DNA of 64,000 nt, taken from Escherichia coli (GTDB lineage: Bacteria > Pseudomonadota > Gammaproteobacteria > Enterobacterales > Enterobacteriaceae). Positions 18,039-34,718 of this stretch are shown in pieces; within the stretch, counting starts at the first letter, position 1, and each line of letters starts with the position of its first letter. The translations under genes and the position numbers were made by a program. The notes under the pieces were generated by a model that made no database searches, was not told where the DNA came from, and saw only the letters and a program-made list of their open reading frames with translations. Location: the NCBI RefSeq assembly GCF_050320075.1, contig NZ_CP190021.1; one strand, 5' to 3'.

Positions 18039-18061
18039 GTTCTCATCTTCCTTTTCTTTTG

Positions 18062-18077
18062 CTGTATATATATACAG
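18062..18077. promoter_or_regulatory. Consensus LexA (SOS) box CTGTATATATATACAG
   Basis: Exact CTGT-N8-ACAG palindrome 24 bp upstream of the impC-like start. Confidence 0.85.
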
Positions 18078-18431
18078 TATTCTAATAACTGAATCCGCAC
18101 ACAGTCAAATGTCATTGTTCTGACTAAAAAACGCTCAATTCTCTGAGGGTATGGCTGTATGCCTGCTGTGGAGTGCTGTGTCCAGCTTATCCACAGCATT
18201 TTGTGCACGGTTCTGTGGACAAAATACCTGGTTACCCAGGCCGTGCCGGCACGTTAACCGGGCTGCATCCGATGCAAGTGTGTCGCTGTCGCCGGCCTCC
18301 TCACCCGGTCACGTTTCGTCGTTCCTCCTCCACGCGCTGCGGCTTCGGGGCCGCACCTGCATTCGTATGCGGTCGCCCGGTTACAGGTGCGGCACGGCCT
18401 GATGGAGGCCGCATGTGAGAGGAGAATTCCC

Positions 18432-19358
18432 ATGCCAAACTGGTGCAGTAACCGTATGCATTTTTCTGGTGAACCGGCACAGATTGCTGAGATTAAACGA
18501 CTGGCCAGTGGTGCCGTCACACCGTTTTATCGCCGCGCCACAAATGAAGGTATTCAGCTGTTTCTGGCCGGAAGTGCCGGACTTCTGCAGACCACTGAAG
18601 ATGTGTGGTTTGAACCGTGCCCCGGACTGACGGCTGCCGGACGTGGCGTTGTATCGCCGGAGAATATCGCGTTCACCCGCTGGCTGACACACCTGCAGAA
18701 CGGTGTACTGCTGGATGAGCAAAACTGCCTGATGCTGCATGAACTCTGGCTGCAGAGCGGTACTGGCCAGCGTCGCTGGGAAGGATTACCGGACGATGTC
18801 AGGGATACCATCACCGCGCTTTTCACCGCAAAAAGAGGTGACTGGTGTGGCTTCTGGAGTAACGAGGATGTATCGGTGTGGTGGAACCGTCTGTGTGACA
18901 ACGTACTGCCGGAAAAAACCATGCCGTTTGACCTGCTGACGGTTCTGCCCACCCGCCTTGATGTTGAAGTGAATGGCTTTAACGGTGGTGTTCTGAACGG
19001 TGTTCCTTCTGCATATCACTGGTATACCGAACAGTATGGCGTGAAGTGGCCTTGTGGGTATGACCTGAATATCAGCAGTCAGGGAGACAACTTCATTCAG
19101 GTTGATTTCGACACGCCGTGGTGTCAGCCGGAAAGCGACGTTATTGCAGAATTAAGCCGCCGTTTCAGCTGCACGCTGGAGCACTGGTATGCCGAACAGG
19201 GCTGTGATTTCTGTGGCTGGCAGTTGTATGAGCGCGGAGAGCTCGTTGATGTGCTGTGGGGGGAGCTGGAATGGTCTTCCCCGACAGATGACGATGAGCT
19301 GCCGGAAGTCACCGGACCTGCGTGGATAGTCGACAAGGTGGCGCATTATGGCGGATGA
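18432..19358 (+). CDS. Conserved leading-region protein of unknown function (cysteine/tryptophan-rich)
   Basis: ATG at 18432 with GGAGAA RBS (MPNWCSNRMHFSGEP...); track ORF starts earlier at 18387. Confidence 0.65.
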   Translation: MPNWCSNRMHFSGEPAQIAEIKRLASGAVTPFYRRATNEGIQLFLAGSAGLLQTTEDVWFEPCPGLTAAGRGVVSPENIAFTRWLTHLQNGVLLDEQNCLMLHELWLQSGTGQRRWEGLPDDVRDTITALFTAKRGDWCGFWSNEDVSVWWNRLCDNVLPEKTMPFDLLTVLPTRLDVEVNGFNGGVLNGVPSAYHWYTEQYGVKWPCGYDLNISSQGDNFIQVDFDTPWCQPESDVIAELSRRFSCTLEHWYAEQGCDFCGWQLYERGELVDVLWGELEWSSPTDDDELPEVTGPAWIVDKVAHYGG

Positions 19359-19742
19359 AGTATGACGGAGACGGGCGGGCTACCGCCCGTTTCTTTTCCG
19401 GTAAAGGATGTCGCCGTGCTCCTCTTTTTACTGCGCCGGCTGACGCGGCGCGGCATAAACGCTGCCTGTGGTCAGTGTCCCGCGTCCGGCCGGGCACGGG
19501 ACGGGCGCTTTTACCGCTCCCGGCTGGCGTCGGTGACAGTGTACGCCAGCCTGTCGCCCTTTTCTGATGAACGCCCTTCAAGCCGCTTTCGCGGCATAAC
19601 CTTGCCGTCAGAAAGACGACGGCTGCGGTATTCCACGGTCGGCCTGACCCGTTACCGGACGCGGTGAACAGCCCACAGGCAGCGGGGAACGGGCACCACA
19701 GGGGTGCCCTCCCGGTGCCCTCTGTAAGAGAAGGAGTTTGGT

Positions 19743-20426
19743 ATGTCCCGTTTTGTCCTCGGTAACTGCATCGATGTTATGGCCCGTATCCCTGATAACG
19801 CCATTGATTTCATCCTCACCGACCCGCCATATCTCGTCGGTTTCCGTGACCGTTCCGGGCGCACCATCGCCGGCGATAAAACCGATGAGTGGCTGCAACC
19901 GGCCTGTAATGAAATGTTCCGCGTACTGAAAAAAGACGCGTTAATGGTGAGCTTCTACGGCTGGAACCGCGTCGATCGCTTTATGGCCGCCTGGAAAAAT
20001 GCGGGATTCAGCGTTGTTGGTCACCTGGTCTTCACCAAAAACTACACATCGAAGGCCGCATATGTGGGCTATCGCCACGAATGCGCCTACATCCTGGCAA
20101 AAGGCCGTCCACGTCTGCCACAAAACCCGCTGCCGGACGTGCTGGGCTGGAAATATTCGGGCAATCGCCATCACCCGACGGAAAAGCCCGTTACCAGCCT
20201 GCAACCGCTGATTGAGAACTTCACACACCCGAACGCAATTGTGCTGGACCCGTTTGCAGGCAGCGGCTCAACCTGCGTCGCCGCCCTCCAGTCCGGACGC
20301 CGGTATATCGGTATCGAGCTGCTTGAGCAGTATCACCGTGCCGGGCAGCAACGCCTTGCCGCCGTGCAACGGGCCATGCAGCAGGGGGCCGCGAATGATG
20401 ACTGGTTTATGCCGGAGGCTGCGTAA
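19743..20426 (+). CDS. Orphan beta-class DNA amino-methyltransferase (N6-adenine or N4-cytosine)
   Basis: Motif IV DPPY at residues 27-30 precedes motif I (LDPFAGSGST) near the C-terminus; no restriction endonuclease gene adjacent. Confidence 0.85.
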   Translation: MSRFVLGNCIDVMARIPDNAIDFILTDPPYLVGFRDRSGRTIAGDKTDEWLQPACNEMFRVLKKDALMVSFYGWNRVDRFMAAWKNAGFSVVGHLVFTKNYTSKAAYVGYRHECAYILAKGRPRLPQNPLPDVLGWKYSGNRHHPTEKPVTSLQPLIENFTHPNAIVLDPFAGSGSTCVAALQSGRRYIGIELLEQYHRAGQQRLAAVQRAMQQGAANDDWFMPEAA

Positions 20427-20648
20427 ATGAACTATGCAGGACACGAAAAACTGCGCGCCGAAGTGGCGGAGGTGGCCAATGCCATGTGCGACCTGCGTAC
20501 AACCATGAATGAGATGGAGCAGCGGTACAGCTTTAATGCCGACACCCTGCCGGAACGTCTGGTGCGTCAGACGCTGTTTCGCGCAAACCGCCTCCTGATG
20601 GAGGCATATACCGAAATTCTGGAACTGGAAGCGTGCTTTAAAGATTGA
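20427..20648 (+). CDS. Hypothetical small protein coupled to the methyltransferase
   Basis: 73-aa ORF starting at the MTase stop (TAAATG). Confidence 0.5.
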   Translation: MNYAGHEKLRAEVAEVANAMCDLRTTMNEMEQRYSFNADTLPERLVRQTLFRANRLLMEAYTEILELEACFKD

Positions 20649-20661
20649 GAAGGAGACGAGA

Positions 20662-21096
20662 ATGTACGGAACATGCGAAACGCTATGCCGGGAGCTGGCA
20701 GTAAAGTATCCGGGAGACATGCCGCTGATGCTGGTTATCTGGTCCCCGGAAGAGATTCAGGCCCTCGCTGACGGAATGGATATTTCCCTGTCCGATCATG
20801 AAATCAGAACCGTCCTGGCGCGCCTGGAGGACATCCCGGAAGACCAGCGGACTGAATCCGGTATTTCTTCCGGCGTGGCGATGGAGATCATCAATAACGT
20901 GAGCGAAAACCGCCAGGTGACCGTCCCTGCTGAACTGCTGGCGTCCCTGATTCAGACCGCTGAACAGGCATTGTGGAAACGTGAATGGGCCGCCCGGGAT
21001 CATGGCCTCGCCGTCCCGGAATGCGTCACCCGCCGTCAGGCGGTGATTAATCAGGCCCGCACCCTGCTGAAAAACAACAGACACGAAAACGACTGA
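20662..21096 (+). CDS. Hypothetical protein, paralog of the 22808-23230 gene
   Basis: 144-aa ORF with RBS AAGGAGACGAGAA-ATG identical to that of the paralog; shared RQVTVPA motif. Confidence 0.65.
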   Translation: MYGTCETLCRELAVKYPGDMPLMLVIWSPEEIQALADGMDISLSDHEIRTVLARLEDIPEDQRTESGISSGVAMEIINNVSENRQVTVPAELLASLIQTAEQALWKREWAARDHGLAVPECVTRRQAVINQARTLLKNNRHEND

Positions 21097-21141
21097 TGTT
21101 ATCGCCGCCTCCGGGCGGCGATTCAGGGAGAACGATTAATC

Positions 21142-21918
21142 ATGAACGAAAACACAACACTGAACGCACTGATTTGTCGTCACGCCCGCAACCTGCTGCT
21201 GGCGCAGGGCTGGCCGGAAGAGACGGATGTTGACCAGCGGAACCCGAACCATCCGGGCTGGATCAGCATTTATGTTCTGCTGGATGCGCCCCGGCTGGCG
21301 ACGTTACTTATCAACCGTCACGGCGGCGCACTGCCGCCGCTCCTGGCCTCCGCCATTCACAAACTGACCGGAACCGGGGCGGAACTTGTACTGTCCGGCA
21401 GTCAGTGGCAGTCGCTGCCGGTACTTCCGGCAGACGGAACGCAGGTGTCTTTCCCGTATGCCGGTGAGTGGCTGGCAGAGGACGAAATCAGGGCAGTTCT
21501 TGATGCGGTACGCGATGCAGTACGCTGTGTCAGTTACCAGGTGGCAGAAGATACGCGGCGTATCCGGGCGGCGCTGACCACCACCGGTCAGACGTTACTG
21601 ACCCGCCAGACGCGCCGCTTTCGCCTGGTCGTGAAGGAGAGCGATCACCCCTGCTGGCTCGATGAGGACGACGAAAACCTGCCCGTGGTGCTCGACGCCA
21701 TCCTGAACCGGGGCGCACGTTTTTCGGCGGTGGAAATGTATCTGGTCAGCGATTGTATTGAACATATCCTGTCCAGTTGGCTGGCCTGGGATGTGCTGCG
21801 TATACCGGATGAACCGCCCCGCCGCTGGTTTGACCGTGGTGTTCTGCGGGAGGTGGTCCGGGAAGCCCGGAACGAAATCCGCAGCATGGCGGATGCCCTG
21901 GCAAAAATCCGGAAATGA
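21142..21918 (+). CDS. Hypothetical protein
   Basis: 258-aa ORF with GGGAGA RBS. Confidence 0.6.
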
Positions 21919-21974
21919 TGACACTGGCGGGGTAAATCCCCGCCTTTTTCCTGCCGGTCCCCGGACAGAGCACA

Positions 21975-22315
21975 AAGGACGTCGCCGCCGGCTCCGCTTT
22001 ACCCGGCCATGCAGGGCATGGCCTTGTGGTTTTTCAGTTATGTGGCCGCCGTGTCGTGTGCGGGCTGTGCCGTGCCTCCATCTTAGCCGGGCTGGCAGGG
22101 ATGCAAGGGTACGCTTCGCCGCTGCGGTCACCCGGTCCCTCCTTCCCGTCTGCCGTGATTTTCCGGTCGTTCACCCGCTCAGATTTCGCGGTCTCACCCT
22201 CCAACTCCCGCCAGCCGTGTGCGTCAGGCTGCGGCTTCCCTTGCGCCCTGTGCATCCCCACCTTATCGCCCGGCTTTTATGGAGGCACGGCACCGCCCGG
22301 TGTCGCGGAATATGT
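21975..22315. repeat. Leading-region repeat family A, copy 1 (~340 bp), candidate ssDNA promoter (Frpo/ssi-like)
   Basis: Near-identical to 28922-29265; ends immediately upstream of the KlcA-like gene. Confidence 0.65.
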
Positions 22316-22335
22316 GAACAACGGAGGAAAACATC

Positions 22336-22761: not shown

Positions 22762-22807
22762 TTAACGGACGGGGCGGCAATGCCGCCCCTGTAAAGGAGA
22801 CGAGAAC

Positions 22808-23230
22808 ATGTACTGTACTGTTAAAGAAATTATCCGCGATGTACTGGATACAGACGTGCCGGACAGTGAATGCGTTTTTGCCGTGGTGCTGACCCGTGGG
22901 GATGTGCGCCACATAGCCCAGGACTGGAGTCTGACAGACGATGAGCTGGAAACCGTCATGCAGCGGCTGGACGATGCCTTTGAATATGGTGCGGATGTCA
23001 GCGTTGTTCACGGCGTTGTTCGTGAACTGATGGAAGAAAAGCGCGCCAGCCGTCAGGTGACAGTCCCGGCGGTGATGCTGGAAAAAGTGTTGGCGCTGGC
23101 AGGCAGTGAAATGAAGCGCCTGTATGCCGTCGGGAGTGAGAACGGGGGCGACGGTGATGCGTTCGTCAGGGAAGAACGCGAAGCAATGGACGTTGTGTTA
23201 CAGGCGCTGGACGGGGAGCACATGTCATGA
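22808..23230 (+). CDS. Hypothetical protein, paralog of the 20662-21096 gene
   Basis: 140-aa ORF; shared RBS and RQVTVPA motif. Confidence 0.65.
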   Translation: MYCTVKEIIRDVLDTDVPDSECVFAVVLTRGDVRHIAQDWSLTDDELETVMQRLDDAFEYGADVSVVHGVVRELMEEKRASRQVTVPAVMLEKVLALAGSEMKRLYAVGSENGGDGDAFVREEREAMDVVLQALDGEHMS

Positions 23231-23418
23231 ATATCAGCACAGAAACCCGCGAAATTCTGCGCAATTACAAAGCCGTGATTAATGCGCGGCGTCGTGAAAT
23301 GGGGCAGAAACCGCTCACCACTGCGCAGATTGTTGATGAAATCTGCGATTTTGTGGCGAATCAGCAGGCGGTTTTCCTCGGTGGTCACTATATCCTTCAG
23401 GGCAGCAGAAACAGGTGA
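23227..23418 (+). CDS. Hypothetical small protein, translationally coupled (TCATGA overlap)
   Basis: 63-aa ORF. Confidence 0.4.
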   Translation: MNISTETREILRNYKAVINARRREMGQKPLTTAQIVDEICDFVANQQAVFLGGHYILQGSRNR

Positions 23419-23620
23419 TACAGGGCAGGCGGTGGAGGCCGCCTGTCAGCCCGCGCGAAAACCCCTGGCAGGCTGACGCCTGCCGGAAATGCGGGGTGCA
23501 GCGCCTGCGGCGCTGCCGGCCCGGCTTTCCGGTCAGAAGGTAGTGTATGGCTGTATGCAGGGAACAGGTGTGATATTCCGTGACACTGTCACCGTTTCTG
23601 GCTGTCTTTTATTGCGCCCA

Positions 23621-24125
23621 CTTCGGCTCCCGGCTGCCTGGCGGCATCCGGTCGTCAGGCCCGACTCCGACAGGCAGCTGCTGGCGCACCCGCCAGTCTC
23701 CGCCGAACCCGCTGGCGCGGTTTCGGGCTGCCGCTACGGTCCGATGCGTGAAAACCCGGCTTGCAGCGACCGTTCCGGTCGCGCCGCCCCTGTCGCGCCG
23801 TGACCTGCGCTCCCTGCACACCTGACGGTGTGTGAGGAAACTGCGCCTGATGGCGCAGCAGTCTTCCCTCCTGCCACCACCCCTGCGGCCTGTTTCCCGC
23901 TGTGGACTTTCCGGGGGGCAGACGTAACCCCCTCCCGTTCCATCTGTCCAGGGTGAGATGCACCGGCCACAAAATTTTTAGCCATGAACCCGGCTAAAAA
24001 TTTTGCGTCCGCCCCCGGACAGCTGTCCCGTGAGGCGGTAAACGGGCCCCCATCGGAAAGGTCCACTGCGGGGAGAAACCCCTGTGAAGTGGACGGCAGG
24101 AGGAGCTTTCGCTCCTCTGAAGGGG
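23621..24125. repeat. Leading-region repeat family B, copy 1 (~505 bp), candidate ssDNA promoter upstream of ssb
   Basis: Highly similar to 29964-30465 and partly to 33013-33345; contains a 14-bp perfect hairpin CAAAATTTTTAGCC-N8-GGCTAAAAATTTTG. Confidence 0.65.
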
Positions 24126-24765: not shown

Positions 24766-25005
24766 ATGAGGATGAGCGAATATTTCAGAATACTTCAGGG
24801 ACTGCCGGACGGCTCCTTTACCCGCGAACAGGCGGAAGCCGTTGCCGCACAGTACCGGAACGTCTTTATCGAGGATGATCAGGGAACGCATTTTCGCCTG
24901 GTTGTCCGTCAGGATGGCACGTTGATCTGGCGCTCCTGGAATTTTGAGGACTGTGCCGGGTACTGGATGAACCAGTACATCAGGGATTTCGGGATTCTTA
25001 AGTAA
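24766..25005 (+). CDS. Hypothetical small protein
   Basis: 79-aa ORF between ssb and the ParB-like gene. Confidence 0.5.
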
Positions 25006-27073: not shown

Positions 27074-27511
27074 ATGATGAATACCGAACTGACACTGAAT
27101 GCCCTGCAGTCCATGAATGCCCAGGAATATGAAGAAATCCGTGCTGCGGGAAGCGATATGCGCCGTAATCTCACTCACGAGGTGATGCGTAAAGTGGACG
27201 CACCGGCTAACTGGATGATGAACGGAGAGTATGGCAGCGAGTTCGGGGGCTTTTTCCCCGTCCAGGTTCGTTTCACGCCAGCCCACGAACGTTTCCACCT
27301 GGCATTATGTTCGCCGGGAGACGTCTCTCAGCTCTGGATGCTGGTTCTGGTGAATGGTGGTGGACAGCCTTTCGCCGTCGTTCAGGTGCAACATATCTTC
27401 ACGCCTGCCGCGATCAGTCACACGCTGGCGCTTGCCGCGACACTGGATGCGCAGGGATACAGTGTTAACGACATCATCCATATCCTGATGGCAGAAGGAG
27501 GTCAGGCATGA
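27074..27511 (+). CDS. psiB: Plasmid SOS inhibition protein PsiB
   Basis: 145-aa ORF recognised from memory; immediately followed by psiA. Confidence 0.9.
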
Positions 27512-28227
27512 GCGCACGTTCACGGGCACTGATCCCCCTCAGCGCAGAACAACAGGCCGCCATGCAGGCGGTGGCTGTCACAGAACAACGTCGTCGTCAG
27601 GGACGCACACTTTCAGCATGGCCTTATGCCACCGCTTTCTTTCGCTGCCTGAATGGCAGTCGCCGGATTTCGCTGACCGATCTCCGCTTTTTTGCCCCTG
27701 CGCTGACGAAGGAGGAATTTCATGGCAACCGTCTCCTGTGGCTGGCTGCCGTGGATAAACTGATTGAAAGTTTTGGGGAAGTCTGTGTTCTTCCCCTGCC
27801 ATCCGATGCGGGGCACCGTCTGTTCCCGTCCGTGCCTTTTCGTGAAGGTGAGCGTCGTCGTCAGAAAACCACGCTGACAGAGCAGAAATACAGCCGCCAG
27901 CGGGAACGTGAGGCAGAACGACGGGAACTGGAATACCAGACATGTTTTGCTCAGGCGCAGATTGACCTTGCGTTTCATACTCCCGCCACGGTCGGAAGCT
28001 GGTTGTCCCGCTGGTCTGGTGTTGTTGAGGAGCATGATCTGGAAACGATTTTCTGGGGGTGGTGCGGGCGTTTTCCATCACTGTCATCATTTGACCGGTT
28101 TTTCTGGCAGGAGGAACCACTCTGGCGGCTGATTTTTGAAGCCGGTGAGGCCGGTCGTGGTGCACCGGTACAGGTACGTGCACTTGAGCAGTGGATGATC
28201 CCGAACAAGCTGGAGAACGTAATATGA
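27508..28227 (+). CDS. psiA: Plasmid SOS inhibition protein PsiA
   Basis: 239-aa ORF overlapping the psiB stop (ATGA). Confidence 0.9.
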
Positions 28228-28820
28228 TGAAATCAGACGAAAAATACCAGGTTCCCGCGTGGATGCGACCTCTGTTGCCGTTGCTCTGCAACACCGGGGG
28301 GAACGATCCGGAAGAACTGCTGAATGATACAGAAACCACTGCCAGTGCGAATGTTGTCCGTTATGTACTGATAGTTGCTGTGCGGTCGCAGGTTGATCTG
28401 CTGCAGCTTCTGTACAGGAAAGGGCTGTTGCGCACAGAGATACCAGGTGGCTTTTCACCGGAAGAAGCGCAGGCACTCCTGGATAATCTGGTGCGCAGCC
28501 ATATCAGCAAGGCGCTGTCGGGCGAGCGAATGGCAGCCCGTGACAGAAATGCCGATCTGGCCTGGATTGGACAGCAACTGGTCGATGACGCCTGGTTTGT
28601 CCGTGCCACACTGGAAGCGCATGGGATGAGCGTCGGAAATGAGAGTCCCCCTGCTCCGCCGGAGACAATGCCGGACATACAGACACGGGAACTGGTGATG
28701 TTGATCAAGCGACTGGCATCATCGCTGAAAGCGGTGAAACCGGACAGTTGTGTGGTGCGTGAAGCGCAGGACTGGCTGCGCGACAGAAAACTTGTGGATA
28801 TCACAGATATTCTCCGGTGA
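28224..28820 (+). CDS. Hypothetical protein translationally coupled to psiA
   Basis: ATGATGA overlap with psiA stop; 198 aa from ATG 28224 (track ORF starts at 28191). Confidence 0.55.
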   Translation: MMKSDEKYQVPAWMRPLLPLLCNTGGNDPEELLNDTETTASANVVRYVLIVAVRSQVDLLQLLYRKGLLRTEIPGGFSPEEAQALLDNLVRSHISKALSGERMAARDRNADLAWIGQQLVDDAWFVRATLEAHGMSVGNESPPAPPETMPDIQTRELVMLIKRLASSLKAVKPDSCVVREAQDWLRDRKLVDITDILR

Positions 28821-28921: not shown

Positions 28922-29265
28922 AAGGAAGTCGCCGGCGGCTCCGCTTTTACCCGGCCATGCGGGGCATGGCCTTGTGGGGTTTCAGCTCTGTGGCCTCAGC
29001 GTCGTGTGCGGGCTGTGCCGTGCCTCCATCTTAGCCGGGCTGGCAGGGATGCAAGGGTACGCTTCGCCGCTGCGGTCACCCGGTCCCTCCTTCCCGTCTG
29101 CCGTGATTTTCCGGTCGTTCGTCCGCTCAGGTTTCGCGGCCTCACCCTGCAACTCCCGTCAGCCGTGTGCGTCAGGCTGCGGCTTCCCTTGCGCCCCTGC
29201 ATCCCCGCCTTATCGCCCGGCTTTTATGGAGGCACGGCACCGCCCGGTGTCGCAGAACATGTGAC
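28922..29265. repeat. Leading-region repeat family A, copy 2, candidate ssDNA promoter upstream of ardA
   Basis: Near-identical to 21975-22315. Confidence 0.65.
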
Positions 29266-29281
29266 TATGGAGGATTCGGGA

Positions 29282-29782
29282 ATGTCTGTTGTTGCACCTG
29301 CTGTATACGTTGGAACCTGGCACAAATACAACTGTGGAAGCATCGCCGGACGCTGGTTTGACCTGACCACGTTTGATGATGAGCGCGACTTTTTCGCCGC
29401 CTGCCGTGCTCTTCACCAGGATGAAGCCGATCCTGAACTGATGTTTCAGGATTATGAGGGATTCCCGGGGAATATGGCCTCTGAATGCCATATCAACTGG
29501 GCCTGGGTTGAAGGCTTCCGCCTGGCACGGGATGAAGGCTGCGAAGAGGCTTATCGTCTCTGGGTGGAGGATACCGGTGAGACGGATTTTGACACCTTCC
29601 GCGATGCCTGGTGGGGCGAGGCTGACAGTGAGGAGGCTTTTGCGGTTGAGTTCGCCAGTGATACCGGCCTGCTGGCTGACGTGCCGGAGACGGTGGCGCT
29701 CTATTTTGACTATGAGGCGTATGCGCGGGATTTATTCCTGGACTCCTTCACCTTTATTGACGGTCATGTGTTCCGTCGGTGA
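29282..29782 (+). CDS. ardA: Anti-restriction protein ArdA (type I R-M inhibitor)
   Basis: 166-aa acidic protein [38 protein letters not shown]...; the track ORF 28892-29782 extends upstream through the repeat. Confidence 0.95.
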
Positions 29783-29963: not shown

Positions 29964-30465
29964 CTTCGGCTCCCGGCTGCCTGGCGGCATCCGGTCGTCA
30001 GGCCCGACTCCGACAGGCAGCTGCTGGCGCACCCGCCAGTCTCCGCCGAACCCGCTGGCGCGGTTTCGGGCTGCCGCTACGGTCCGATGTCTGAAAAACC
30101 AGGCTTGCAGCGACCGTTCCGGTCGCGCCGCCCCTGTCGCGCCGGAAACGGCGCTCCCTGCACACCTGACGGTGTGTAAGGCCACTGCGCCTGATGGCGC
30201 AGTCAACCCTTCCGCCGCCACCCCTGCGGCCTGTTTCCCGCTGTGGACTTTCCGGGGGCTGGAGTAACCACATCCCGTTTCAGCAGTCCAGGGGAAGATA
30301 TACCGTCCACAAAATTTTTAGCCATAAACCCGGCAAAAAATTTTGCGTCCGCCCCCGGACAGCTGCCCCGTGACGTGGTGACGGACGCCCCATCGGAAAG
30401 GTCCACTGCGGGGAGAAACCCCGAAGAAGTGGACGGCAGAAGGGGCTTTCGCCCCTCCGGGGAGC
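29964..30465. repeat. Leading-region repeat family B, copy 2
   Basis: Aligned by eye to copy 1 over ~500 bp. Confidence 0.65.
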
Positions 30466-30510
30466 AACCGGTCGGCCCGGCGACCTGATTCAGCAGAAGG
30501 AGACGTTTTC

Positions 30511-30945
30511 ATGACAGTCAGCAGCACGATTTCCGTTTTTTGCCGCGACGGGGTGTTCCGTACCGTTTACTGCCACCTGCACGGGGAGCCGACCTGGAAC
30601 GGTCGCATCCTGCATACCCACTATGCCACCGGTCAGCAGGCCGAAGCCCTGGTTGAACACGGTGATATCCGTTGCCTCGGTCCCCGTTGCGACAAACCCG
30701 CCGGGCATACGCTTCAGAACCCGGTGGACGGTGTGACGGCTTATTACGGACGTGACAGTGGTTTCCGGATGGACAGTGAGGCGCGTGAGTACCGTTCTTT
30801 CAGGGAGGCTATTGCCACTGAAAGCACTGAAGAGGTGCGCTTCCATTATGTGTTCATCGACGGCTACTGGAAGGTGATGTACCGCACGCCGGAAGGCTGG
30901 AAGATGAAAGCGCTCGCGCTGGCACTGCGTCGCTGTCCGAAATGA
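30511..30945 (+). CDS. Hypothetical protein
   Basis: 144-aa ORF with GAAGGAG RBS directly after repeat B2. Confidence 0.6.
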   Translation: MTVSSTISVFCRDGVFRTVYCHLHGEPTWNGRILHTHYATGQQAEALVEHGDIRCLGPRCDKPAGHTLQNPVDGVTAYYGRDSGFRMDSEAREYRSFREAIATESTEEVRFHYVFIDGYWKVMYRTPEGWKMKALALALRRCPK

Positions 30946-31038
30946 AAAAAAGGCAGGGCGATAAACCCTGCCTCTCTCCGCCGGCGCTTCCCCGCCAGGA
31001 AGTCCGGCATCTCAATCACTATCTATGGAGATTATGCC

Positions 31039-31305
31039 ATGAGACCATCAATTATCTTCGCAACCGCCGAGTATGTAAAGCGTCTGCGTGAAGAGTGCCT
31101 GCGGGAGAATAAACCCCTGCACCGCCATACCCGCTTCAGACGTCAGGAGCTGGCACAGGATGAGATTAACCCGGACGTCCTGGCGATGAGCGGCCATATC
31201 GCCAGACGCTGCAGTGAGCAGAAGCGGGTGCGTATCCCCGCTATGAAAGTCAGCGAATGGGGCCACCTGCTCCGCGCGCTTGAAATTGAGCGGGTCTGCC
31301 ACTGA
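31039..31305 (+). CDS. Hypothetical small basic protein
   Basis: 88-aa ORF upstream of the Rpn-like gene. Confidence 0.45.
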   Translation: MRPSIIFATAEYVKRLREECLRENKPLHRHTRFRRQELAQDEINPDVLAMSGHIARRCSEQKRVRIPAMKVSEWGHLLRALEIERVCH

Positions 31306-31369
31306 TTAACCCTTGCCGTCTGCCTGTGCAGGCGGCAGGATACGTTCAGACATCTCACCAGGAGGAACC

Positions 31370-32308
31370 GTGAGTCAGAAGAAAACCACCACGACGCCCA
31401 CGCCGCATGATGCCGCGTTCCGGTCGTTCCTGGCGAATCCCGACGTCGCCAGAGATTTTCTGGAACTGCATCTTCCGGCGGAGTACCGGCAGTTGTGCGA
31501 CCTGTCCACGCTGAAGCTGGAACCCGCCACCTTTGTTGAGCCGGACCTGCATCAGTACGCCAGCGATATCCTCTGGAGTGTGAAAACCACCGGGGGTGAA
31601 GATGGCTATGTTTATACGCTCATCGAGCACCAGAGCACCGAAAATCTGTACATGCCTTTCCGCATGTTACGTTACAGTGTGGCGGCGATGCAGAGACATC
31701 TGGAGCAGCACAAAACGTTGCCACTGGTGATTCCTGTACTGTTCTATCATGGTGAGCGCAGCCCGTACCCGTACAGCATGAACTGGCTGGACTGTTTTGA
31801 GAATCCGGCACTTGCGGCTAAAATATACACAAAGCCGTTTCCGCTGGTTGATATCACTGTCGTTGATGACAATGAAATCATGAACCATCGCCGGATGGCC
31901 GCACTGACGCTGCTGATGAAGCATATCCGCCATCGTGACATGATGGAGCTGCTGGACAAACTCCCGCAGGTCATGGTGGAAATTTCAGACGAGCAGGTGC
32001 GTGTTCTGATTCATTACATCGTTAACGCAGGGGACTCTGTATCACCGGAATTTATGCGGGCGCTGGCTGAGCGTCTGCCGCAGCATGAGGATAAACTGAT
32101 GACTATCGCAGAACGTCTTGAGCAAAAAGGTCGCCAGGAGGGCAGGATGGAAGGACGCATGGAAGGACGCATGGAAGGACGCATGGAAGGAGCGCTTGAA
32201 AAAGCCCTGGCTATTGCGTGCCAGCTTCAGAAAATGGGGATGACGCCGGAGCAGATTAAGCAGGCTACCGGACTTTCCGATGACGAACTGAAGAAAATCA
32301 CTCACTGA
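31370..32308 (+). CDS. Rpn (YhgA-like) family PD-(D/E)xK nuclease/recombination-promoting protein
   Basis: GTG at 31370 with GGAGG RBS; N-terminal TPHDAAFRSFL, core YVYTLIEHQSTEN...FRMLRYSVAAMQRHL, recognised from memory as the YhgA/Rpn family. Confidence 0.75.
   Translation: MSQKKTTTTPTPHDAAFRSFLANPDVARDFLELHLPAEYRQLCDLSTLKLEPATFVEPDLHQYASDILWSVKTTGGEDGYVYTLIEHQSTENLYMPFRMLRYSVAAMQRHLEQHKTLPLVIPVLFYHGERSPYPYSMNWLDCFENPALAAKIYTKPFPLVDITVVDDNEIMNHRRMAALTLLMKHIRHRDMMELLDKLPQVMVEISDEQVRVLIHYIVNAGDSVSPEFMRALAERLPQHEDKLMTIAERLEQKGRQEGRMEGRMEGRMEGRMEGALEKALAIACQLQKMGMTPEQIKQATGLSDDELKKITH
32141..32188. repeat. In-frame 12-bp tandem repeat (GGACGCATGGAA x ~4) encoding (EGRM)n inside the Rpn-like gene
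   Basis: Read directly from sequence. Confidence 0.9.
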
Positions 32309-32314
32309 GTAAAC

Positions 32315-32345
32315 ATCACAGCCCGGCAAAATGCCGGGCTTTTTT
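32315..32345 (+). terminator. Rho-independent terminator after the Rpn-like gene
   Basis: AGCCCGGCA-AAA-TGCCGGGCT stem followed by TTTTTT. Confidence 0.7.
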
Positions 32346-32369
32346 GTCAGCAGGAGCAGAGCAAATAGC

Positions 32370-32528
32370 ATGACGATTGCAGAACGTCTTATTCAAAAAG
32401 GCGCACTTGAAGTGGCGCGGGAAATAGCCTGCCGGCTGCGGGATATGGGCTGGACGCCGGAACGGATTCAGGAGGCAACCGGACTTTCCGGTGAAGAACT
32501 GAAAAAGCTGTTTCCTGATGAGCAGTAG
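32370..32528 (+). CDS. Small protein duplicating the C-terminal module of the Rpn-like protein (RpnS-like candidate)
   Basis: 52-aa ORF MTIAERLIQKGALEVAREIACRLRDMGWTPERIQEATGLSGEELKKLF..., parallel to the Rpn tail MTIAERLEQKG...ALAIACQLQKMGMTPEQIKQATGLSDDELKK. Confidence 0.55.
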   Translation: MTIAERLIQKGALEVAREIACRLRDMGWTPERIQEATGLSGEELKKLFPDEQ

Positions 32529-32558
32529 CCTGGCATTCAGCCAGGCTGTGAATCACGC

Positions 32559-32810
32559 TCACACATCCTCTGCCGTTTCCCCCAGTTCATTTTCCAGTCG
32601 CCTGATGATATCTGCCTTACGCATCCCCTGCATGTGAGGCAGCAGGTCACGGACTGAAAGTGCCTGGGTGGTCCTCCAGACGGTGACGTCCACCTGTTCC
32701 GCATTTTCCCAGGCGTGCCATGTTCTCTGCGTCACGCCAAATTCTCTGGCCGCTTTTTCGCGTGACCAGAGCATGCTTTTTCGCCAGATTCGCAGTTCCC
32801 AGCCGGTCAT
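32559..32810 (-). CDS. Small HTH DNA-binding protein (Cro/Xre-like)
   Basis: 83-aa ORF with EFGVTQRTWHAWENA HTH-like segment; twin palindromes in its 5' region. Confidence 0.6.
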   Translation of the reverse strand: MTGWELRIWRKSMLWSREKAAREFGVTQRTWHAWENAEQVDVTVWRTTQALSVRDLLPHMQGMRKADIIRRLENELGETAEDV

Positions 32811-32824
32811 AAAACACCTTTGAA

Positions 32825-32912
32825 AAAGTGAAAAAACTTCACTTTATTTTATCATCACAATTGCCAAATCAGCGCGATAAATAAGTGTAAAAAAGTGAAG
32901 AAATTTCACTTT
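32825..32912. promoter_or_regulatory. Two palindromic operator candidates AAAGTGAA-N5-TTCACTTT (32825-32845 and 32892-32912)
   Basis: Identical 8-bp arms in both copies, 67 bp apart, read from sequence. Confidence 0.6.
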
Positions 32913-33012
32913 TTTTGCTTGTAAATGTCGTGCGGTTTTCTCTGTTTTCACCTGTGCGGGAGTGGTGTGCCAGTGACCACCACATGCCATTGTTGTGCCG
33001 TCGTTTTTCTTC

Positions 33013-33345
33013 AGTCGCGCCGTATGCGGCGCTCCCTGCACACCTTACGGTGTGTAAGGCCACTGCGCCTGATGGCGCAGCTGTCTCTGCCTGTCTGCCG
33101 CCGCACTGCGGCCTGTTCTCCGCAGACGGACTTTCCGGGGGTACATACATGACCACATCCCGTTTCAGTCGTCCAGGGGGGAGATGTACCAGCCACAAAA
33201 CTTTTTGCCGCAGGCGTCAAAAACTTTTGCGTCTGCCCCCGGACAACTGCCCCGTGACGTGGTGAGCGTCCCCCGTCGGAAAGGTCCACTGCGGGGAAAT
33301 CCCCGAAGACCCGGACGGCAGAAGGAGCTTCGCTCCTCCGGGAAA
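33013..33345. repeat. Leading-region repeat family B, copy 3 (partial, 3' two-thirds)
   Basis: Aligns to 23792-24125 of copy 1, including a degenerate version of the hairpin. Confidence 0.6.
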
Positions 33346-33389
33346 TGACCTGGCTGTCCCGGCAGTCGTGACGATGAGGAGACAATGTG

Positions 33390-34238
33390 ATGAATCAGAC
33401 TTTACCCACTGCTGACCTGAATACTGCCGGCACGACAGATGTTATTCCGTCTGTGGCTATCGACCGCATCATCGCGCAGCGTAACGAAGGTATTGCACTG
33501 TTCATGCAGGCGATGGAATGCCTGGCGACAGCGCGCAAGATTCTGCTCGATGCGTCAGGTGATATTTTTCTTTACGGGTTTGAAGACTGCGTGACTGATT
33601 CCGTTCGTCGCATAGATAAACCGGAAGAAGCGAAAAGGAATATCACCCGTCTTGCCGACCGGAAAATCTGGGACCGCCTGATGACAGATACGGGCATGTA
33701 CACCTTCATGAGTTCATGCCAGCGTGATGAGTGGAACAGCCAGCTGATGAGCGACACCTGTCCTGAAATCACCCTGGACAATGTACTGGCAACATTCCGC
33801 CATCTGAATGCCTGCAAGATGCAGACATTTGAACAGGGACTGATTGATGTCTACCGGAAATTGTCATGGGATTACAGAACCAATAATCCCTGCCGTCTGG
33901 GTAAGAAAATCATTATTGAAAACCTGCTGTACCGCTGGAGTAACGGGCGTGTGACGCTGGACTGCAGCGGACGGGAGGCACTGGATGACCTGGTACGTCC
34001 GTTTTATCTGCTGGAGGGGCGCAACGTTCCTGACTTCAGGAACAGTATCGGGGCGCAGTATGGTGAATTTCTCGGGAACGGCGACAATGTCGGTAAGCTG
34101 TTAGAAGGGGAATATTTTACGGTGCGTGGCTACCAGAAAGGGACCGTACACATTGTCTTTAAGCGTTCTGACCTTGTTGAAAAACTGAATGATATTATTG
34201 CACGGCATTATCCAGGTGCATTGCCGCCACGAGTCTGA
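33390..34238 (+). CDS. Hypothetical protein, last leading-region gene before oriT
   Basis: ATG at 33390 with GAGGAG RBS (track ORF 33387-34238 starts at a GTG one codon earlier). Confidence 0.6.
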   Translation: MNQTLPTADLNTAGTTDVIPSVAIDRIIAQRNEGIALFMQAMECLATARKILLDASGDIFLYGFEDCVTDSVRRIDKPEEAKRNITRLADRKIWDRLMTDTGMYTFMSSCQRDEWNSQLMSDTCPEITLDNVLATFRHLNACKMQTFEQGLIDVYRKLSWDYRTNNPCRLGKKIIIENLLYRWSNGRVTLDCSGREALDDLVRPFYLLEGRNVPDFRNSIGAQYGEFLGNGDNVGKLLEGEYFTVRGYQKGTVHIVFKRSDLVEKLNDIIARHYPGALPPRV

Positions 34239-34243
34239 TTAAA

Positions 34244-34282
34244 CAGAAAAGCCCTGGTATTTATGCCGGGGCTTTTTTTTCT
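34244..34282 (+). terminator. Rho-independent terminator
   Basis: AAGCCCTGG-loop-CCGGGGCTT stem followed by a T8 run. Confidence 0.7.
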
Positions 34283-34323
34283 GTAATCATCATAATCTCA
34301 GAACACGATGTGACATTGTCACA

Positions 34324-34665
34324 TCAATTGTTGTTCATATCGATGCCATCTTTCCTGCCTGAATCTGTCTTTTTAGGTGCTGTTTTAGAGGAAGAACGGC
34401 GGGATGGTTTTTTCGATTCTGCTTCCCGAATAATGTCACGAAGTGCCTTCTCTCCTACTTCATACCCTGCATTTTTGAGCGTGTCACGAACATCTGCCAG
34501 TGTATAACCCTTTGTCCTTACCAGGACAATAATGTCATCACGAATGGCATCAAGAAAATCACGCAATGTTTTCCGTTGAGCGGTGAGATCTGGCAATTCC
34601 GATAAAGCAGCTTTTGCCAGCTGGATGTCATCATCTGAGTAAAATTTTTTAGAAGCCATTGGCAC
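34324..34665 (-). CDS. Hypothetical protein with basic C-terminal tail, divergent from nikA next to oriT
   Basis: 113-aa ORF ending ...KKPSRRSSSKTAPKKTDSGRK... Confidence 0.5.
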   Translation of the reverse strand: MPMASKKFYSDDDIQLAKAALSELPDLTAQRKTLRDFLDAIRDDIIVLVRTKGYTLADVRDTLKNAGYEVGEKALRDIIREAESKKPSRRSSSKTAPKKTDSGRKDGIDMNNN

Positions 34666-34718
34666 TTTCTCTCCGTTTCATGTTGAAGTCTGATTTTATC
34701 ATCAAAAACTGACTCCTG

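What the first reader, a model, noticed from the sequence alone, without database searches (positions are those of the whole stretch)
18040..34700. Leading region organised as an anti-defence/establishment island with several unknown ORFs
All genes between the imp remnant and oriT are on the strand transcribed toward oriT. Known establishment genes (orphan MTase, KlcA-like, ArdA, SSB, PsiB/PsiA) are interleaved with unknowns (18432-19358, 20427-20648, 20662-21096, 21142-21918, 22808-23230, 23227-23418, 24766-25005, 28224-28820, 30511-30945, 31039-31305, 33390-34238). By guilt-by-association these are candidate anti-restriction, anti-CRISPR or other anti-defence functions.
Basis: inference. Interest (0 to 1): 0.7.

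Follow-up and report, generated by a model that had tools for sequence, protein, structure and literature searches.

The report
IncI1 plasmid leading-region establishment island
This is the well-studied stretch of an IncI1 resistance plasmid that enters a recipient cell first; its genes are real and conserved, but the idea that the unnamed ones fight host defences is already published and still untested.

Summary
Window 18040-34700 is the leading region of an IncI1-type conjugative plasmid. It is 100% identical to pSH1148_107 and matches at least 5000 plasmid records. All eleven "unknown" ORFs exist at the stated coordinates and evolve under purifying selection (dN/dS 0.04-0.5, or too few substitutions to tell). 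Gene order is the same as in pESBL (Hp8-Hp23).

Twenty of 22 credible genes point toward oriT (34795-34877). Two do not: an HTH gene and yggA. The distal border is a truncated impC with its LexA box.

Each operon is preceded by a large hairpin on the transferred strand. These correspond to the three published classes of single-strand promoters.

No ORF resembles a known anti-defence protein, and pESBL TnSeq scored all of them neutral. The neighbouring ParB-like gene proved to be a host reprogrammer, and Rpn is a defence toxin, so "establishment" fits better than "anti-defence".

Extras:
- A conserved seventh, class-2-like hairpin lies upstream of the DUF1281 gene.
- The 144-aa "PndC" is mislabelled and belongs to a large family, also found in phages, with a confident model that has no solved relative.
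- A free-standing RpnS-like ORF follows rpn.

The parts
17859..18038 (-). Truncated impC (DinI-like) remnant, the distal border of the island. Its LexA box is at 18063-18078.
   Evidence: Homology to an impCAB-bearing IncI1 contig begins at 17911. The SOS box was read. L002 and L007 show intact impC/impA at this position.
18237..18401 (-). Candidate seventh single-strand promoter hairpin, class-2-like, on the transferred strand, upstream of the DUF1281 gene.
   Evidence: Inverted repeat I7. The DNA fold has z -2.84. It aligns to the class-2 elements in both arms, with TTGCAT-N15-TAACGT. There are 0-1 mismatches in 195 nt against 5-6% divergence in the flanks in three plasmids. It is present in 4406 plasmid records.
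18432..19358 (+). DUF1281 / Hp8 / YubB-like gene, function unknown.
   Evidence: Pfam DUF1281 + DUF1281_C. PDB 2IJR Api92, E 1e-46. dN/dS 0.23-0.34.
19460..19684 (-). Class-3 single-strand promoter hairpin upstream of the MTase. The annotated ORF 19362-19667 overlapping it is probably spurious.
   Evidence: I6. Fold z -7.29. The class is defined in PMC12672017. dN/dS of the overlapping ORF is 3.7 and 1.4.
19743..20426 (+). Orphan DNA methyltransferase, M.EcoGIX/YfbB type, which methylates single-stranded DNA.
   Evidence: NF010253, 497 bits. Its role is described in PMC4288162.
20427..20648 (+). YubE-family 73-aa gene (Hp9), function unknown.
   Evidence: Pfam PF27407 YubE. phrog_4830. dN/dS 0.11-0.17.
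20662..21096 (+). DUF1380 gene a (Hp10), function unknown.
   Evidence: PF07128. Paralogue of 22808-23230, 31% identity. dN/dS 0.23-0.28.
21142..21918 (+). YchA / Hp11, 258 aa, function unknown. It is the last gene of the MTase operon; a terminator-like hairpin lies at 21926-21944.
   Evidence: No Pfam, NCBIfam or PDB hit. phrog_8919. Cluster of 8403 members. Terminator-like site. dN/dS 0.21-0.24.
21975..22317 (-). Class-2 single-strand promoter element upstream of klcA (hairpin arms 22061-22092 and 22268-22299).
   Evidence: Repeats D1/D8/D18 and I2. Fold z -4.54. The class is defined in PMC12672017.
22336..22761 (+). KlcA/ArdB-type anti-restriction gene.
   Evidence: PF03230. phrog_10132 anti-restriction.
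22808..23230 (+). DUF1380 gene b (Hp12), function unknown.
   Evidence: phrog_9024, E 7.5e-6. Paralogy. dN/dS 0.20-0.29.
23227..23418 (+). AreA / Hp13, 63 aa, function unknown.
   Evidence: Name from UniRef. No family hit. dN/dS 0.04-0.28.
23621..24117 (-). Class-1 (ssi/Frpo-type) repeat with the hairpin upstream of ssb (ssi3).
   Evidence: Repeat families D2-D5, D7 and D9-D11. Fold z -7.95. ssi3 is named in PMC10104558.
24187..24714 (+). Plasmid SSB.
   Evidence: PF00436.
24772..25005 (+). DUF905 / Hp14 / YfjA-YkfF family gene, function unknown.
   Evidence: PF06006. PDB 2HJJ YkfF, E 6e-22. dN/dS 0.41-0.50.
25064..27022 (+). ParB-like YfjB/YfhA (HerB) homologue.
   Evidence: ParB_N + HTH_ParB. 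Function described in PMC13370423. Loss-of-function effects in PMC10104558.
27077..28227 (+). psiB (27077-27511) and psiA (27508-28227), SOS inhibition genes.
   Evidence: PF06290 and PF06952.
28224..28820 (+). YgaA / Hp15, 198 aa, function unknown. Its start overlaps the psiA stop by 4 nt.
   Evidence: No Pfam or PDB hit. Weak C-terminal PHROG hits. Restricted to enterobacterial plasmids. dN/dS 0.23.
28922..29264 (-). Class-2 single-strand promoter element upstream of ardA.
   Evidence: 94% identical repeat of 21975-22317, with inverted repeat I4.
29282..29782 (+). ArdA anti-restriction gene.
   Evidence: PF07275.
29964..30457 (-). Class-1 (ssi/Frpo-type) repeat upstream of orf144.
   Evidence: Repeats D2-D11, 85-98% identical to 23621-24117. 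100% conserved in L007.
30511..30945 (+). orf144 / Hp16, mislabelled 'PndC'. Member of a large uncharacterised family shared with phages.
   Evidence: 1981 representative clusters. Conserved polar motif. AF2 pLDDT 96.5. No PDB fold match. No Pfam hit. Phage homologues. No hok gene or Sok RNA nearby. The true pndA is at 42874-42981.
31039..31305 (+). YdfB / Hp17, 88 aa, function unknown. From its source name it is probably the YdaB/YdfB/YgdA family, the largest uncharacterised leading-region family in Samuel et al.
   Evidence: Name. Family 1 in Supplementary Table 1; assignment by name only. No hits.
31370..32308 (+). Rpn-family (PD-(D/E)XK) nuclease gene, followed by a terminator-like hairpin at 32320-32340.
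   Evidence: TIGR01784, 180 bits. Transposase_31 + HTH_Rpn_C. Terminator-like site.
32331..32528 (+). orf65 / Hp20, a free-standing copy of the Rpn C-terminal (RpnS-like) domain.
   Evidence: 49% identity to Rpn residues 244-310. Repeats D6 and D15. Weak TIGR01784 C-terminal hit. dN/dS 0.09.
32559..32810 (-). HTH (XRE-type) regulator gene Hp21, on the opposite strand.
   Evidence: phrog_6962, E 1.8e-13. dN 0, dS 0.075.
33106..33304 (-). Class-1 (ssi/Frpo-type) hairpin upstream of the DUF4942 gene.
   Evidence: Third copy of repeats D3, D5, D7, D9 and D11. Fold z -8.21.
33390..34238 (+). DUF4942 / Hp22 / YdiA-YgfB gene, the first + strand gene after oriT, function unknown.
   Evidence: PF13708, E 3e-50. 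Matches the N-terminal half of phrog_6263 'DNA methyltransferase'. AF2 pLDDT 83.9. No PDB fold match. dN/dS 0.14.
34324..34659 (-). yggA / Hp23, 111 aa, on the opposite strand next to oriT. The 'molybdopterin MobC' label is a misnomer.
   Evidence: Names. dN/dS 0.30.
34795..34877 (.). oriT (inverted repeat GCAATTGTATAA...TTATACAATTGC, plus CTGGTCAGGGCTTCGCCCCGACACC), followed by nikA at 34892.
   Evidence: Mapped from pESBL oriT 70354-70436 with an offset of 35559. Sequence read. nikA and nikB annotated.

Best explanation
The region is the leading region of an IncI1-type conjugative plasmid. It is the first DNA to enter a recipient after NikB nicks oriT (34795-34877).

The transferred strand is the window's minus strand. 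It enters 5' end first and serves as the template for all + strand genes.

Before the complementary strand is made, large hairpins on that strand rebuild double-stranded sigma-70 promoters. There are three of class 1 (ssi/Frpo), two of class 2 and one of class 3, plus a probable seventh that is class-2-like. Host RNA polymerase then gives a short burst of transcription from six or seven operons. The burst ends when the DNA becomes double-stranded.

Products of known function:
- a methyltransferase that modifies single-stranded DNA;
- KlcA and ArdA, inhibitors of type I restriction;
- SSB;
- PsiB/PsiA, which block SOS;
- the ParB-like host reprogrammer.

The eleven unknown ORFs are real, conserved, co-transcribed members of these operons. 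They are therefore early 'establishment' proteins. Their biochemical roles are unknown and probably mixed: some counter-defence, some DNA or host manipulation, some toxin-antitoxin related.

What is shown: identity of the region, gene reality, operon layout, hairpins and conservation. What is taken from published work on the near-identical pESBL: zygotic induction and transcription start sites. What is inferred: the role of each unknown ORF.
For: Identity and context:
- 100% identity to pSH1148_107 (replicon typed IncI-gamma/K1, MOBP, MPF_I) and at least 5000 matching plasmids.
- Same gene order and gene sizes as pESBL Hp8-Hp23.
- oriT sequence and the nikA/nikB genes.
- Truncated impC with its LexA box at the distal border.

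Promoter elements:
- The repeat families and inverted repeats lie exactly in the intergenic gaps upstream of each operon.
- DNA folds of the minus strand give z scores of -7.3, -4.5, -7.95 and -8.2.
- The published RNA-seq and 5' RACE on pESBL show six induced operons with class 1-3 single-strand promoters.
- The hairpin elements are more conserved than the neighbouring coding sequence.

Genes:
- dN/dS is 0.04-0.5 for nine of the eleven reader-listed ORFs; the other two (orf144, YdfB) have too few substitutions to tell.
- Clusters of 1000-8400 members sit on at least 1000 contigs each.
- Terminator-like hairpins lie just after YchA and after Rpn.

The island concept, including umuCD-type borders, is published.
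Against: - No expression data exist for this exact plasmid. Induction is inferred from pESBL, which has the same gene order.
- Two genes (HTH, yggA) are on the other strand and cannot be made from the entering strand.
- pESBL TnSeq found every leading-region gene dispensable for transfer into K-12. Loss of the ssb-operon genes can even raise transfer in some hosts. So 'establishment' benefit depends on conditions and is unproven for the unknown ORFs.
- The seventh hairpin folds less strongly (z -2.84) and is not among the six published promoters.
Confidence: 0.9

Rival explanations
1. Most of the unknown ORFs are dedicated inhibitors of host immunity (anti-restriction, anti-CRISPR, anti-BREX and the like). 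They act as binders or decoys during the first minutes after entry.
For: - They are co-transcribed with proven counter-defence genes from single-strand promoters.
- The families are statistically enriched in leading regions.
- DUF4942 and DUF1380 occur fused to DNA methyltransferases elsewhere, which hints at a link with restriction-modification.
- orf144 homologues sit in large lytic phages and in an array of tiny ORFs that looks like an early region.
Against: - No sequence or fold similarity to any known anti-defence protein.
- All are TnSeq-neutral in pESBL.
- The sequences are strongly conserved and dN/dS is low, with no sign of an arms race.
- Neighbours in the same operons turned out to be a host transcription reprogrammer and a defence-type toxin.
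- orf144 has a conserved polar residue set that looks like an enzyme, not a decoy.
Confidence: 0.3
2. The unknown ORFs mainly serve purposes other than immunity evasion: handling of the incoming single strand and its conversion, reprogramming host physiology, plasmid-plasmid competition, or toxin-antitoxin functions. The island is an 'early gene' region in the broad phage sense.
For: - HerB/YfjB acts on host transcription and metabolism.
- Single-strand promoters also time complementary-strand synthesis.
- Rpn plus an RpnS-like ORF form a toxin-antitoxin type module.
- YgaA's start overlaps the psiA stop by 4 nt, as psiA's does psiB's, which suggests coupling to the anti-SOS genes (coordinates).
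Against: No direct evidence for any individual unknown ORF. Enrichment next to anti-defence genes is equally compatible with counter-defence.
Confidence: 0.45
3. Some or all of the 'unknown ORFs' are not genes but chance open frames in GC-rich intergenic DNA.
For: 19362-19667 has dN/dS 3.7 and 1.4 and overlaps a hairpin. 23489-23803 has dN/dS 0.57 and 1.18.
Against: Nine of the eleven listed ORFs show dN/dS of 0.5 or below, and none has an internal stop in diverged plasmids. The other two are too little diverged to score. Most match PHROG or Pfam families or large protein clusters. Two have solved homologues.
Confidence: 0.03

Closest known systems
Leading region of IncI1 plasmids pESBL-EA11, R64 and ColIb-P9
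   Same: Same gene order and gene lengths from impC to nikA (Hp8, M.EcoGIX, Hp9-11, KlcA, Hp12-13, Ssb, Hp14, ParB-like, PsiB, PsiA, YgaA, ArdA, Hp16-23). The same three classes of single-strand promoter elements sit in the same gaps.
   Different: In this plasmid impAB and the 3' part of impC have been replaced by a ParM-type partition module. Rpn is one intact 312-aa gene, where pESBL lists two ORFs (Hp18 and Hp19).
F-plasmid leading region (Frpo1/Frpo2; ssb-yfjA-yfjB-psiB-psiA)
   Same: An IncF plasmid shares the DUF1281-to-AreA block and the ssb-to-psiA block at 81-97% nucleotide identity. It also shares the hairpin upstream of DUF1281 at 100%. The logic of transcription from single-stranded DNA is the same.
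   Different: In the IncF example, YgaA, ardA, orf144, YdfB, Rpn, DUF4942 and yggA gave no nucleotide match. That plasmid carries DUF3560, a class I SAM methyltransferase and hok instead.
Anti-defence islands of plasmid leading regions (Samuel et al., Nature 2024)
   Same: Bounded by oriT and umuCD-type genes, oriented for transcription from the transferred strand, with Frpo-like promoters and a mix of anti-restriction, anti-SOS, MTase, SSB, toxin-antitoxin and uncharacterised families. The families found here are in their table.
   Different: Nothing of substance. This locus is a typical example. No anti-CRISPR gene was recognised here.
Early ('host-takeover') regions of large lytic phages
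   Same: Arrays of small genes on one strand, expressed first on entry. orf144 homologues occur in jumbo and T4-like phages and in such an array.
   Different: Phage early genes use ordinary double-stranded promoters. Here the promoters exist only while the DNA is single-stranded.

Membership tests
Plasmid leading-region anti-defence island (Samuel et al. 2024) | Lies next to oriT on the side that enters the recipient first | tested here: met
   oriT is at 34795-34877, with nikA/nikB on the far side. Gene orientation implies that the minus strand is the transferred strand.
Plasmid leading-region anti-defence island (Samuel et al. 2024) | Distal border formed by umuCD-type (imp) genes on the opposite strand | tested here: met
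   Truncated impC on the minus strand with its LexA box. Relatives have intact impCAB at this position.
Plasmid leading-region anti-defence island (Samuel et al. 2024) | Genes oriented so that the transferred strand is the template | tested here: met
   20 of 22 credible genes are on the + strand. The exceptions are Hp21 and Hp23.
Plasmid leading-region anti-defence island (Samuel et al. 2024) | Contains known anti-defence genes | tested here: met
   ArdA, KlcA, PsiB, PsiA and the orphan MTase, by Pfam/NCBIfam.
Single-strand (Frpo/ssi-type) promoters, classes 1-3 | Long imperfect hairpin on the transferred strand just upstream of an operon, folding better than shuffled sequence | tested here: met
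   z -7.3 (MTase), -4.5 (klcA), -7.95 (ssb), -8.2 (DUF4942). The ardA and orf144 copies are 85-98% identical repeats.
Single-strand (Frpo/ssi-type) promoters, classes 1-3 | Transcription start and induction only while the DNA is single-stranded | not testable with these tools
   Shown for pESBL, which has the same gene order, by RNA-seq and 5' RACE. Not measured for this plasmid.
Class-2 single-strand promoter (candidate seventh copy, 18237-18401) | Sequence and architecture shared with the klcA and ardA elements, with -35/-10 boxes on the 3' arm | tested here: met
   Aligns in both arms. TTGCAT-N15-TAACGT compares with TTGCAT-N15-TAAGAT. Strongly conserved.
Class-2 single-strand promoter (candidate seventh copy, 18237-18401) | Drives early transcription of the downstream gene | not testable with these tools
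   It is not among the six promoters reported for pESBL. The figures and supplements were not readable.
Known anti-CRISPR / anti-restriction protein families (for the unknown ORFs) | Sequence or fold similarity to a characterised inhibitor | tested here: not met
Known anti-CRISPR / anti-restriction protein families (for the unknown ORFs) | Raises transfer or transformation into recipients that carry a defined defence system | not testable with these tools
   The only data are the pESBL TnSeq into K-12, which scored all genes neutral.
PndC (mok-like frame of the pnd/hok-sok killer locus), the public label of orf144 | Overlaps and is translationally coupled to a Hok-family toxin gene, with an antisense RNA | tested here: not met
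   No Hok-like ORF at 30450-31400 and no Sok-type RNA. The real pndA is at 42874-42981. pESBL lists PndC/PndA beyond trbA.
Rpn toxin with RpnS antitoxin (for Rpn + orf65) | A small protein corresponding to the Rpn C-terminal domain | tested here: met
   orf65 residues 14-60 are 49% identical to Rpn 244-310. Weak TIGR01784 C-terminal hit.
Rpn toxin with RpnS antitoxin (for Rpn + orf65) | The small protein neutralises the toxicity of the long form | not testable with these tools
   Known for chromosomal Rpn proteins, where RpnS is made from an internal start. Here it is a separate downstream ORF.

The most novel reading that the evidence does not exclude
orf144/Hp16 (30511-30945), publicly mislabelled 'PndC', would be the founding plasmid member of a very large family of small enzymes with a fold that has no solved relative. 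The family has about 2000 clusters at 50% identity, and the conserved residues are Thr3, Tyr20, His22, His66, Tyr79 and Arg81-Asp82-Arg83. Plasmids would express it from a single-strand promoter within minutes of entry, and jumbo and T4-like phages would carry it too. On this reading it destroys or modifies a host molecule, for example a defence signalling nucleotide or a nucleic-acid modification, and so would be a new class of enzymatic counter-defence. A smaller companion claim is that the IncI/IncF leading region has a seventh, so far unreported, single-strand promoter upstream of the DUF1281 gene.
Probability: 0.15. Interest if true: 0.7.

Novelty: already known. Interest (0 to 1): 0.2.

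Why it matters
Leading regions decide whether a resistance plasmid survives its first minutes in a new host. The roles of their many conserved unnamed genes are a real open question. This locus, however, is a textbook copy of a region that has already been sequenced thousands of times, mapped by TnSeq, profiled by RNA-seq and catalogued in a survey of leading-region gene families. The finding adds no new lead beyond that work.

The useful by-products are narrower:
- a corrected gene list, with two misleading public names and one spurious ORF;
- a strongly conserved seventh hairpin that may be an unreported single-strand promoter;
- a well-modelled, enzyme-like family shared with phages, which would be a sensible first target for experiments.

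Tried and rejected
- Family scans. NCBIfam, PHROGs and PADLOC scans of the listed unknown ORFs (DUF905 was not run against PADLOC) gave only unknown-function families or nothing.
- PDB sequence searches. Single proteins and two profiles were searched. Only DUF1281 (Api92, 2IJR) and DUF905 (YkfF, 2HJJ) have solved relatives, and both are of unknown function.
- Pfam on alignments. DUF4942 matched only itself. orf144 matched nothing.
- The 'PndC' label. I checked whether orf144 belongs to a hok/sok-type locus and rejected it.
- Rfam scan of the region. Nothing above threshold.
- Fused domains. I looked in longer orf144 homologues and found no consistent domain.
- Homologue search for YgaA. Only close enterobacterial plasmid copies.
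- Covariation for the seventh hairpin. The alignment to the class-2 elements on the transferred strand was mis-gapped, and the element is too conserved to vary, so this gave no usable test.
- R64 record. Not in the plasmid collection.
- Supplements of the pESBL RNA-seq paper. Not held.

Full report
**What the region is**

Window 18040-34700 matches at least 5000 plasmid records, and 1334 of them cover at least 80% of it. It is 100% identical to Salmonella Heidelberg plasmid pSH1148_107, which is typed as conjugative, IncI-gamma/K1, MOBP, MPF_I. Directly downstream are nikA and the IncI1-type relaxase nikB. The published gene table of the IncI1 plasmid pESBL-EA11 has the same order and the same gene lengths from ImpC through Hp8, M.EcoGIX, Hp9-11, KlcA, Hp12-13, Ssb, Hp14, ParB-like, PsiB, PsiA, YgaA, ArdA and Hp16-23 to oriT and NikA (PMC4288162). 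Mapping that table with an offset of 35559 puts oriT at window 34795-34877. The sequence there shows the inverted repeat GCAATTGTATAA...TTATACAATTGC followed by CTGGTCAGGGCTTCGCCCCGACACC. So this is the leading region of an IncI1-type plasmid.

**Check of the observation**

The known genes are confirmed:
- N6_N4 MTase (NF010253, 497 bits);
- Antirestrict/KlcA, SSB, PsiB, PsiA and ArdA (Pfam).

The 'imp remnant' is real. Homology with an impCAB-bearing IncI1 contig starts at 17911, inside impC. The LexA box CTGTATATATATACAG is at 18063-18078. Upstream of the break, this plasmid carries a ParM-type partition module instead of impAB.

The statement that all genes point toward oriT is nearly right but not exactly. 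Twenty of 22 credible genes are on the + strand (binomial P about 6e-5, my arithmetic). An HTH regulator (32559-32810; phrog_6962, E 1.8e-13) and yggA/Hp23 (34324-34659) are on the minus strand, and both look like real genes.

**Are the unknown ORFs genes?**

I compared each ORF with its counterpart in an IncI1/B/O plasmid from Citrobacter (L007) and an IncF plasmid (L008).
- Nine of the eleven reader-listed ORFs gave dN/dS between 0.04 and 0.5, with no internal stops.
- orf144 and YdfB have too few substitutions to score (dN 0 in both).
- The annotated frame 19362-19667 gave 3.7 and 1.4, so it is probably not a gene. It overlaps the hairpin upstream of the MTase.
- The frame 23489-23803 gave 0.57 and 1.18, so it is doubtful.

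The proteins belong to clusters of 1000-8400 members seen on at least 1000 contigs each. Their source names are YchA (258 aa), AreA (63 aa), YgaA (198 aa), YdfB (88 aa) and YdaD (65 aa).

**How the region is organised and expressed**

Repeat analysis found three families of non-coding elements, each exactly in an intergenic gap upstream of a gene block.
- A roughly 500-nt repeat occurs at 23621-24117 and 29964-30457, with a partial third copy at 32973-33304. These lie upstream of ssb, orf144 and the DUF4942 gene.
- A roughly 340-nt repeat occurs at 21975-22317 and 28922-29264, upstream of klcA and ardA. Its 32-nt arms are about 175 nt apart.
- A unique inverted repeat occurs at 19460-19684, upstream of the MTase.

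Folded as single-stranded DNA, the minus strand of these elements forms long hairpins far more stable than shuffled controls: z -7.95, -8.21, -4.54 and -7.29.

This matches the class 1 (ssi1-3/Frpo), class 2 (klcA, ardA) and class 3 (M.EcoGIX) single-strand promoters reported for pESBL. There, RNA-seq of fresh transconjugants showed up to about 500-fold induction of six operons, and 5' RACE confirmed the start sites (PMC12672017).

Because the genes are on the + strand, the template, and hence the transferred strand, is the minus strand. Its 5' end is at oriT, so the region enters in the order 34.7 kb to 18 kb. Terminator-like hairpins lie just after YchA (21926-21944) and after Rpn (32320-32340).

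The inferred operons are:
- DUF4942;
- orf144-YdfB-Rpn(-orf65);
- ardA;
- ssb-DUF905-ParB-like-psiB-psiA-YgaA;
- klcA-DUF1380b-AreA;
- MTase-YubE-DUF1380a-YchA.

The psiB, psiA and YgaA frames overlap by 4 nt (coordinates), which suggests translational coupling.

**What is known about the interpretation**

That paper describes leading regions as anti-defence islands bounded by oriT and umuCD-type genes, with genes on the transferred strand and Frpo-type promoters. It notes that a third of the most common families are uncharacterised and 'probably' anti-defence (PMC11541004).

Its Supplementary Table 1 already lists the families found here: DUF905, AreA/YffA/YchA, DUF1380, RpnB, 'PndC', DUF4942, DUF1281 and YdaB/YdfB/YgdA. 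All are leading-region-enriched, and none has a DIAMOND or Foldseek hit to known anti-CRISPR or anti-restriction proteins.

Three other published results bear on it.
- pESBL TnSeq scored every one of these genes neutral for maintenance and for transfer into E. coli K-12.
- Loss-of-function mutations in the ssb operon raised transfer in a host-specific way (PMC10104558).
- The ParB-like protein YfjB has since been shown to reprogram host transcription and was renamed HerB (PMC13370423). Rpn proteins are anti-phage toxin-antitoxin nucleases (PMC10327210).

So co-location has already misled for at least two genes. 'Establishment' is a safer umbrella term than 'anti-defence'.

**My own searches on the unknown ORFs**

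NCBIfam gave nothing for ten of them. PHROGs gave only unknown-function families. PADLOC gave nothing meaningful.

Only two have solved relatives, and both are of unknown function: DUF1281 matches Api92 (2IJR, E 1e-46), and DUF905 matches YkfF (2HJJ, E 6e-22).

**orf144**

The 144-aa ORF at 30511-30945 is named 'post-segregation killing protein PndC' in public databases. That name does not fit. There is no Hok-type ORF or Sok-type RNA next to it. The real pndA is at window 42874-42981, as in pESBL, where PndC/PndA lie beyond trbA.

An exhaustive HMMER search found 1981 representative clusters (at 50% identity) with E of 0.001 or better. The alignment shows a conserved polar set: Thr3, Tyr20, His22, His66, Tyr79, Arg81, Asp82, Arg83 and Tyr113, within the motifs MxTRSxI, YCHWDGY, GHSF and YGRDRG.

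The AlphaFold model is very confident (pLDDT 96.5, pTM 0.90). Even so:
- Pfam has no family for it;
- AFDB50 neighbours are all uncharacterised.

Homologues occur in jumbo and T4-like phages of Cronobacter, Serratia, Erwinia, Vibrio and Synechococcus. One metagenomic homologue sits in a run of more than 20 tiny same-strand ORFs without Pfam hits. The residue pattern suggests an enzyme rather than a decoy. That is inference only.

**A possible seventh single-strand promoter**

An inverted repeat at 18237-18263/18375-18401 lies just upstream of the ribosome-binding site and the ATG (18432) of the DUF1281 gene. The minus strand folds into a hairpin (z -2.84; 2 of 200 shuffles as good).

It aligns with the class-2 elements in both arms and has the same layout on the 3' arm: TTGCAT-N15-TAACGT against TTGCAT-N15-TAAGAT.

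Across an IncI1, an IncI1/B/O and an IncF plasmid, the 195 nt from 18237 to 18431 show 0, 1 and 0 mismatches. The DUF1281 coding sequence next to it differs by 5-6%, and the spacer upstream by 3-7%. At 5.5% divergence about 11 mismatches would be expected, giving Poisson P(1 or fewer) of about 3e-4 (my arithmetic). The three comparisons are not independent, and recombination mosaics could contribute.

The element occurs in 4406 plasmid records, 3959 of them at 99% identity or more, and is unannotated. The pESBL study reports six promoters and does not include this one. I could not read its figures or supplements, so I do not know whether Hp8 is induced.

**Other points**

orf65 (32331-32528) is a separate copy of the Rpn C-terminal domain. 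It is 49% identical to Rpn residues 244-310 and lacks the (GRME)4 repeat. It begins inside the terminator-like hairpin after rpn. Since RpnS domains act as antitoxins, it may be a free-standing antitoxin. The label 'molybdopterin-guanine dinucleotide biosynthesis protein MobC' on yggA/Hp23 is a naming error.

**Verdict**

The interpretation repeats a published and still untested conjecture. My searches give it no direct support and point to some counter-examples. Novelty: already known. Interest: low (0.2). The side observations on orf144 and the seventh hairpin are the only parts that might repay experiments.

Noticed in passing
window 18237-18401 (leader to 18431): Class-2-like hairpin on the transferred strand upstream of the DUF1281 gene. 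It shows 0-1 mismatches in 195 nt across IncI1, IncI1/B/O and IncF plasmids, although the flanks differ by 3-7%. It occurs in 4406 plasmid records and is unannotated. It is not among the six single-strand promoters published for pESBL.
   Followed up: partly
window 30511-30945: The 144-aa ORF is publicly named 'PndC', but no hok/pndA gene or Sok RNA is nearby. It belongs to a family of about 2000 clusters. Its AlphaFold model is very confident and has no solved structural relative. Homologues occur in jumbo and T4-like phages.
   Followed up: yes
window 42874-42981: The real pndA (Hok-family toxin, MPQRTFLMMLIVICVTILCFVWMVRDSLCGLRLQQGNTVLVATLAYEVKR) lies here, well outside the leading region, as in pESBL.
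   Followed up: partly
window 32331-32528: This 65-aa ORF is a stand-alone copy of the Rpn C-terminal (RpnS-like) domain, 49% identical to Rpn residues 244-310. It starts inside the terminator-like hairpin 32320-32340 that follows rpn. It may be a free-standing antitoxin.
   Followed up: partly
window 19362-19667: This annotated 101-aa 'hypothetical protein' has dN/dS of 3.7 and 1.4 and overlaps the class-3 hairpin upstream of the MTase. It is probably an annotation artefact. The frame 23489-23803, called in some records, is similarly doubtful.
   Followed up: yes
window 17383-18078: impAB and the 3' part of impC are missing. Homology to impCAB-bearing plasmids starts at 17911, and a ParM-type partition module lies upstream. 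The impC promoter's LexA box (18063-18078) is retained next to a gene fragment.
   Followed up: partly
window 34324-34659: yggA/Hp23, a 111-aa gene on the opposite strand next to oriT, carries the misleading name 'molybdopterin-guanine dinucleotide biosynthesis protein MobC'. Its role is unknown, and it was TnSeq-neutral in pESBL.
   Followed up: no
window 32099-32200 (within rpn): The Rpn protein contains a four-fold GRME repeat (GRMEGRMEGRMEGRMEG) just before its C-terminal domain. The downstream RpnS-like ORF lacks it.
   Followed up: no
window 23621-23857 and 29964-30198: The class-1 repeats extend about 240 nt upstream of the promoter hairpin itself and are 93-98% identical between copies. 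This extra part also folds well (z -4.1 for 23430-23880), but I found no described function for it.
   Followed up: no
L008 (IncF plasmid CP088033.1) 9266-11519: The IncF relative has a DUF3560 gene and a class I SAM methyltransferase between the AreA and ssb blocks, and hok after psiA, where the IncI1 plasmid has other genes. The leading region is built from exchangeable modules.
   Followed up: no
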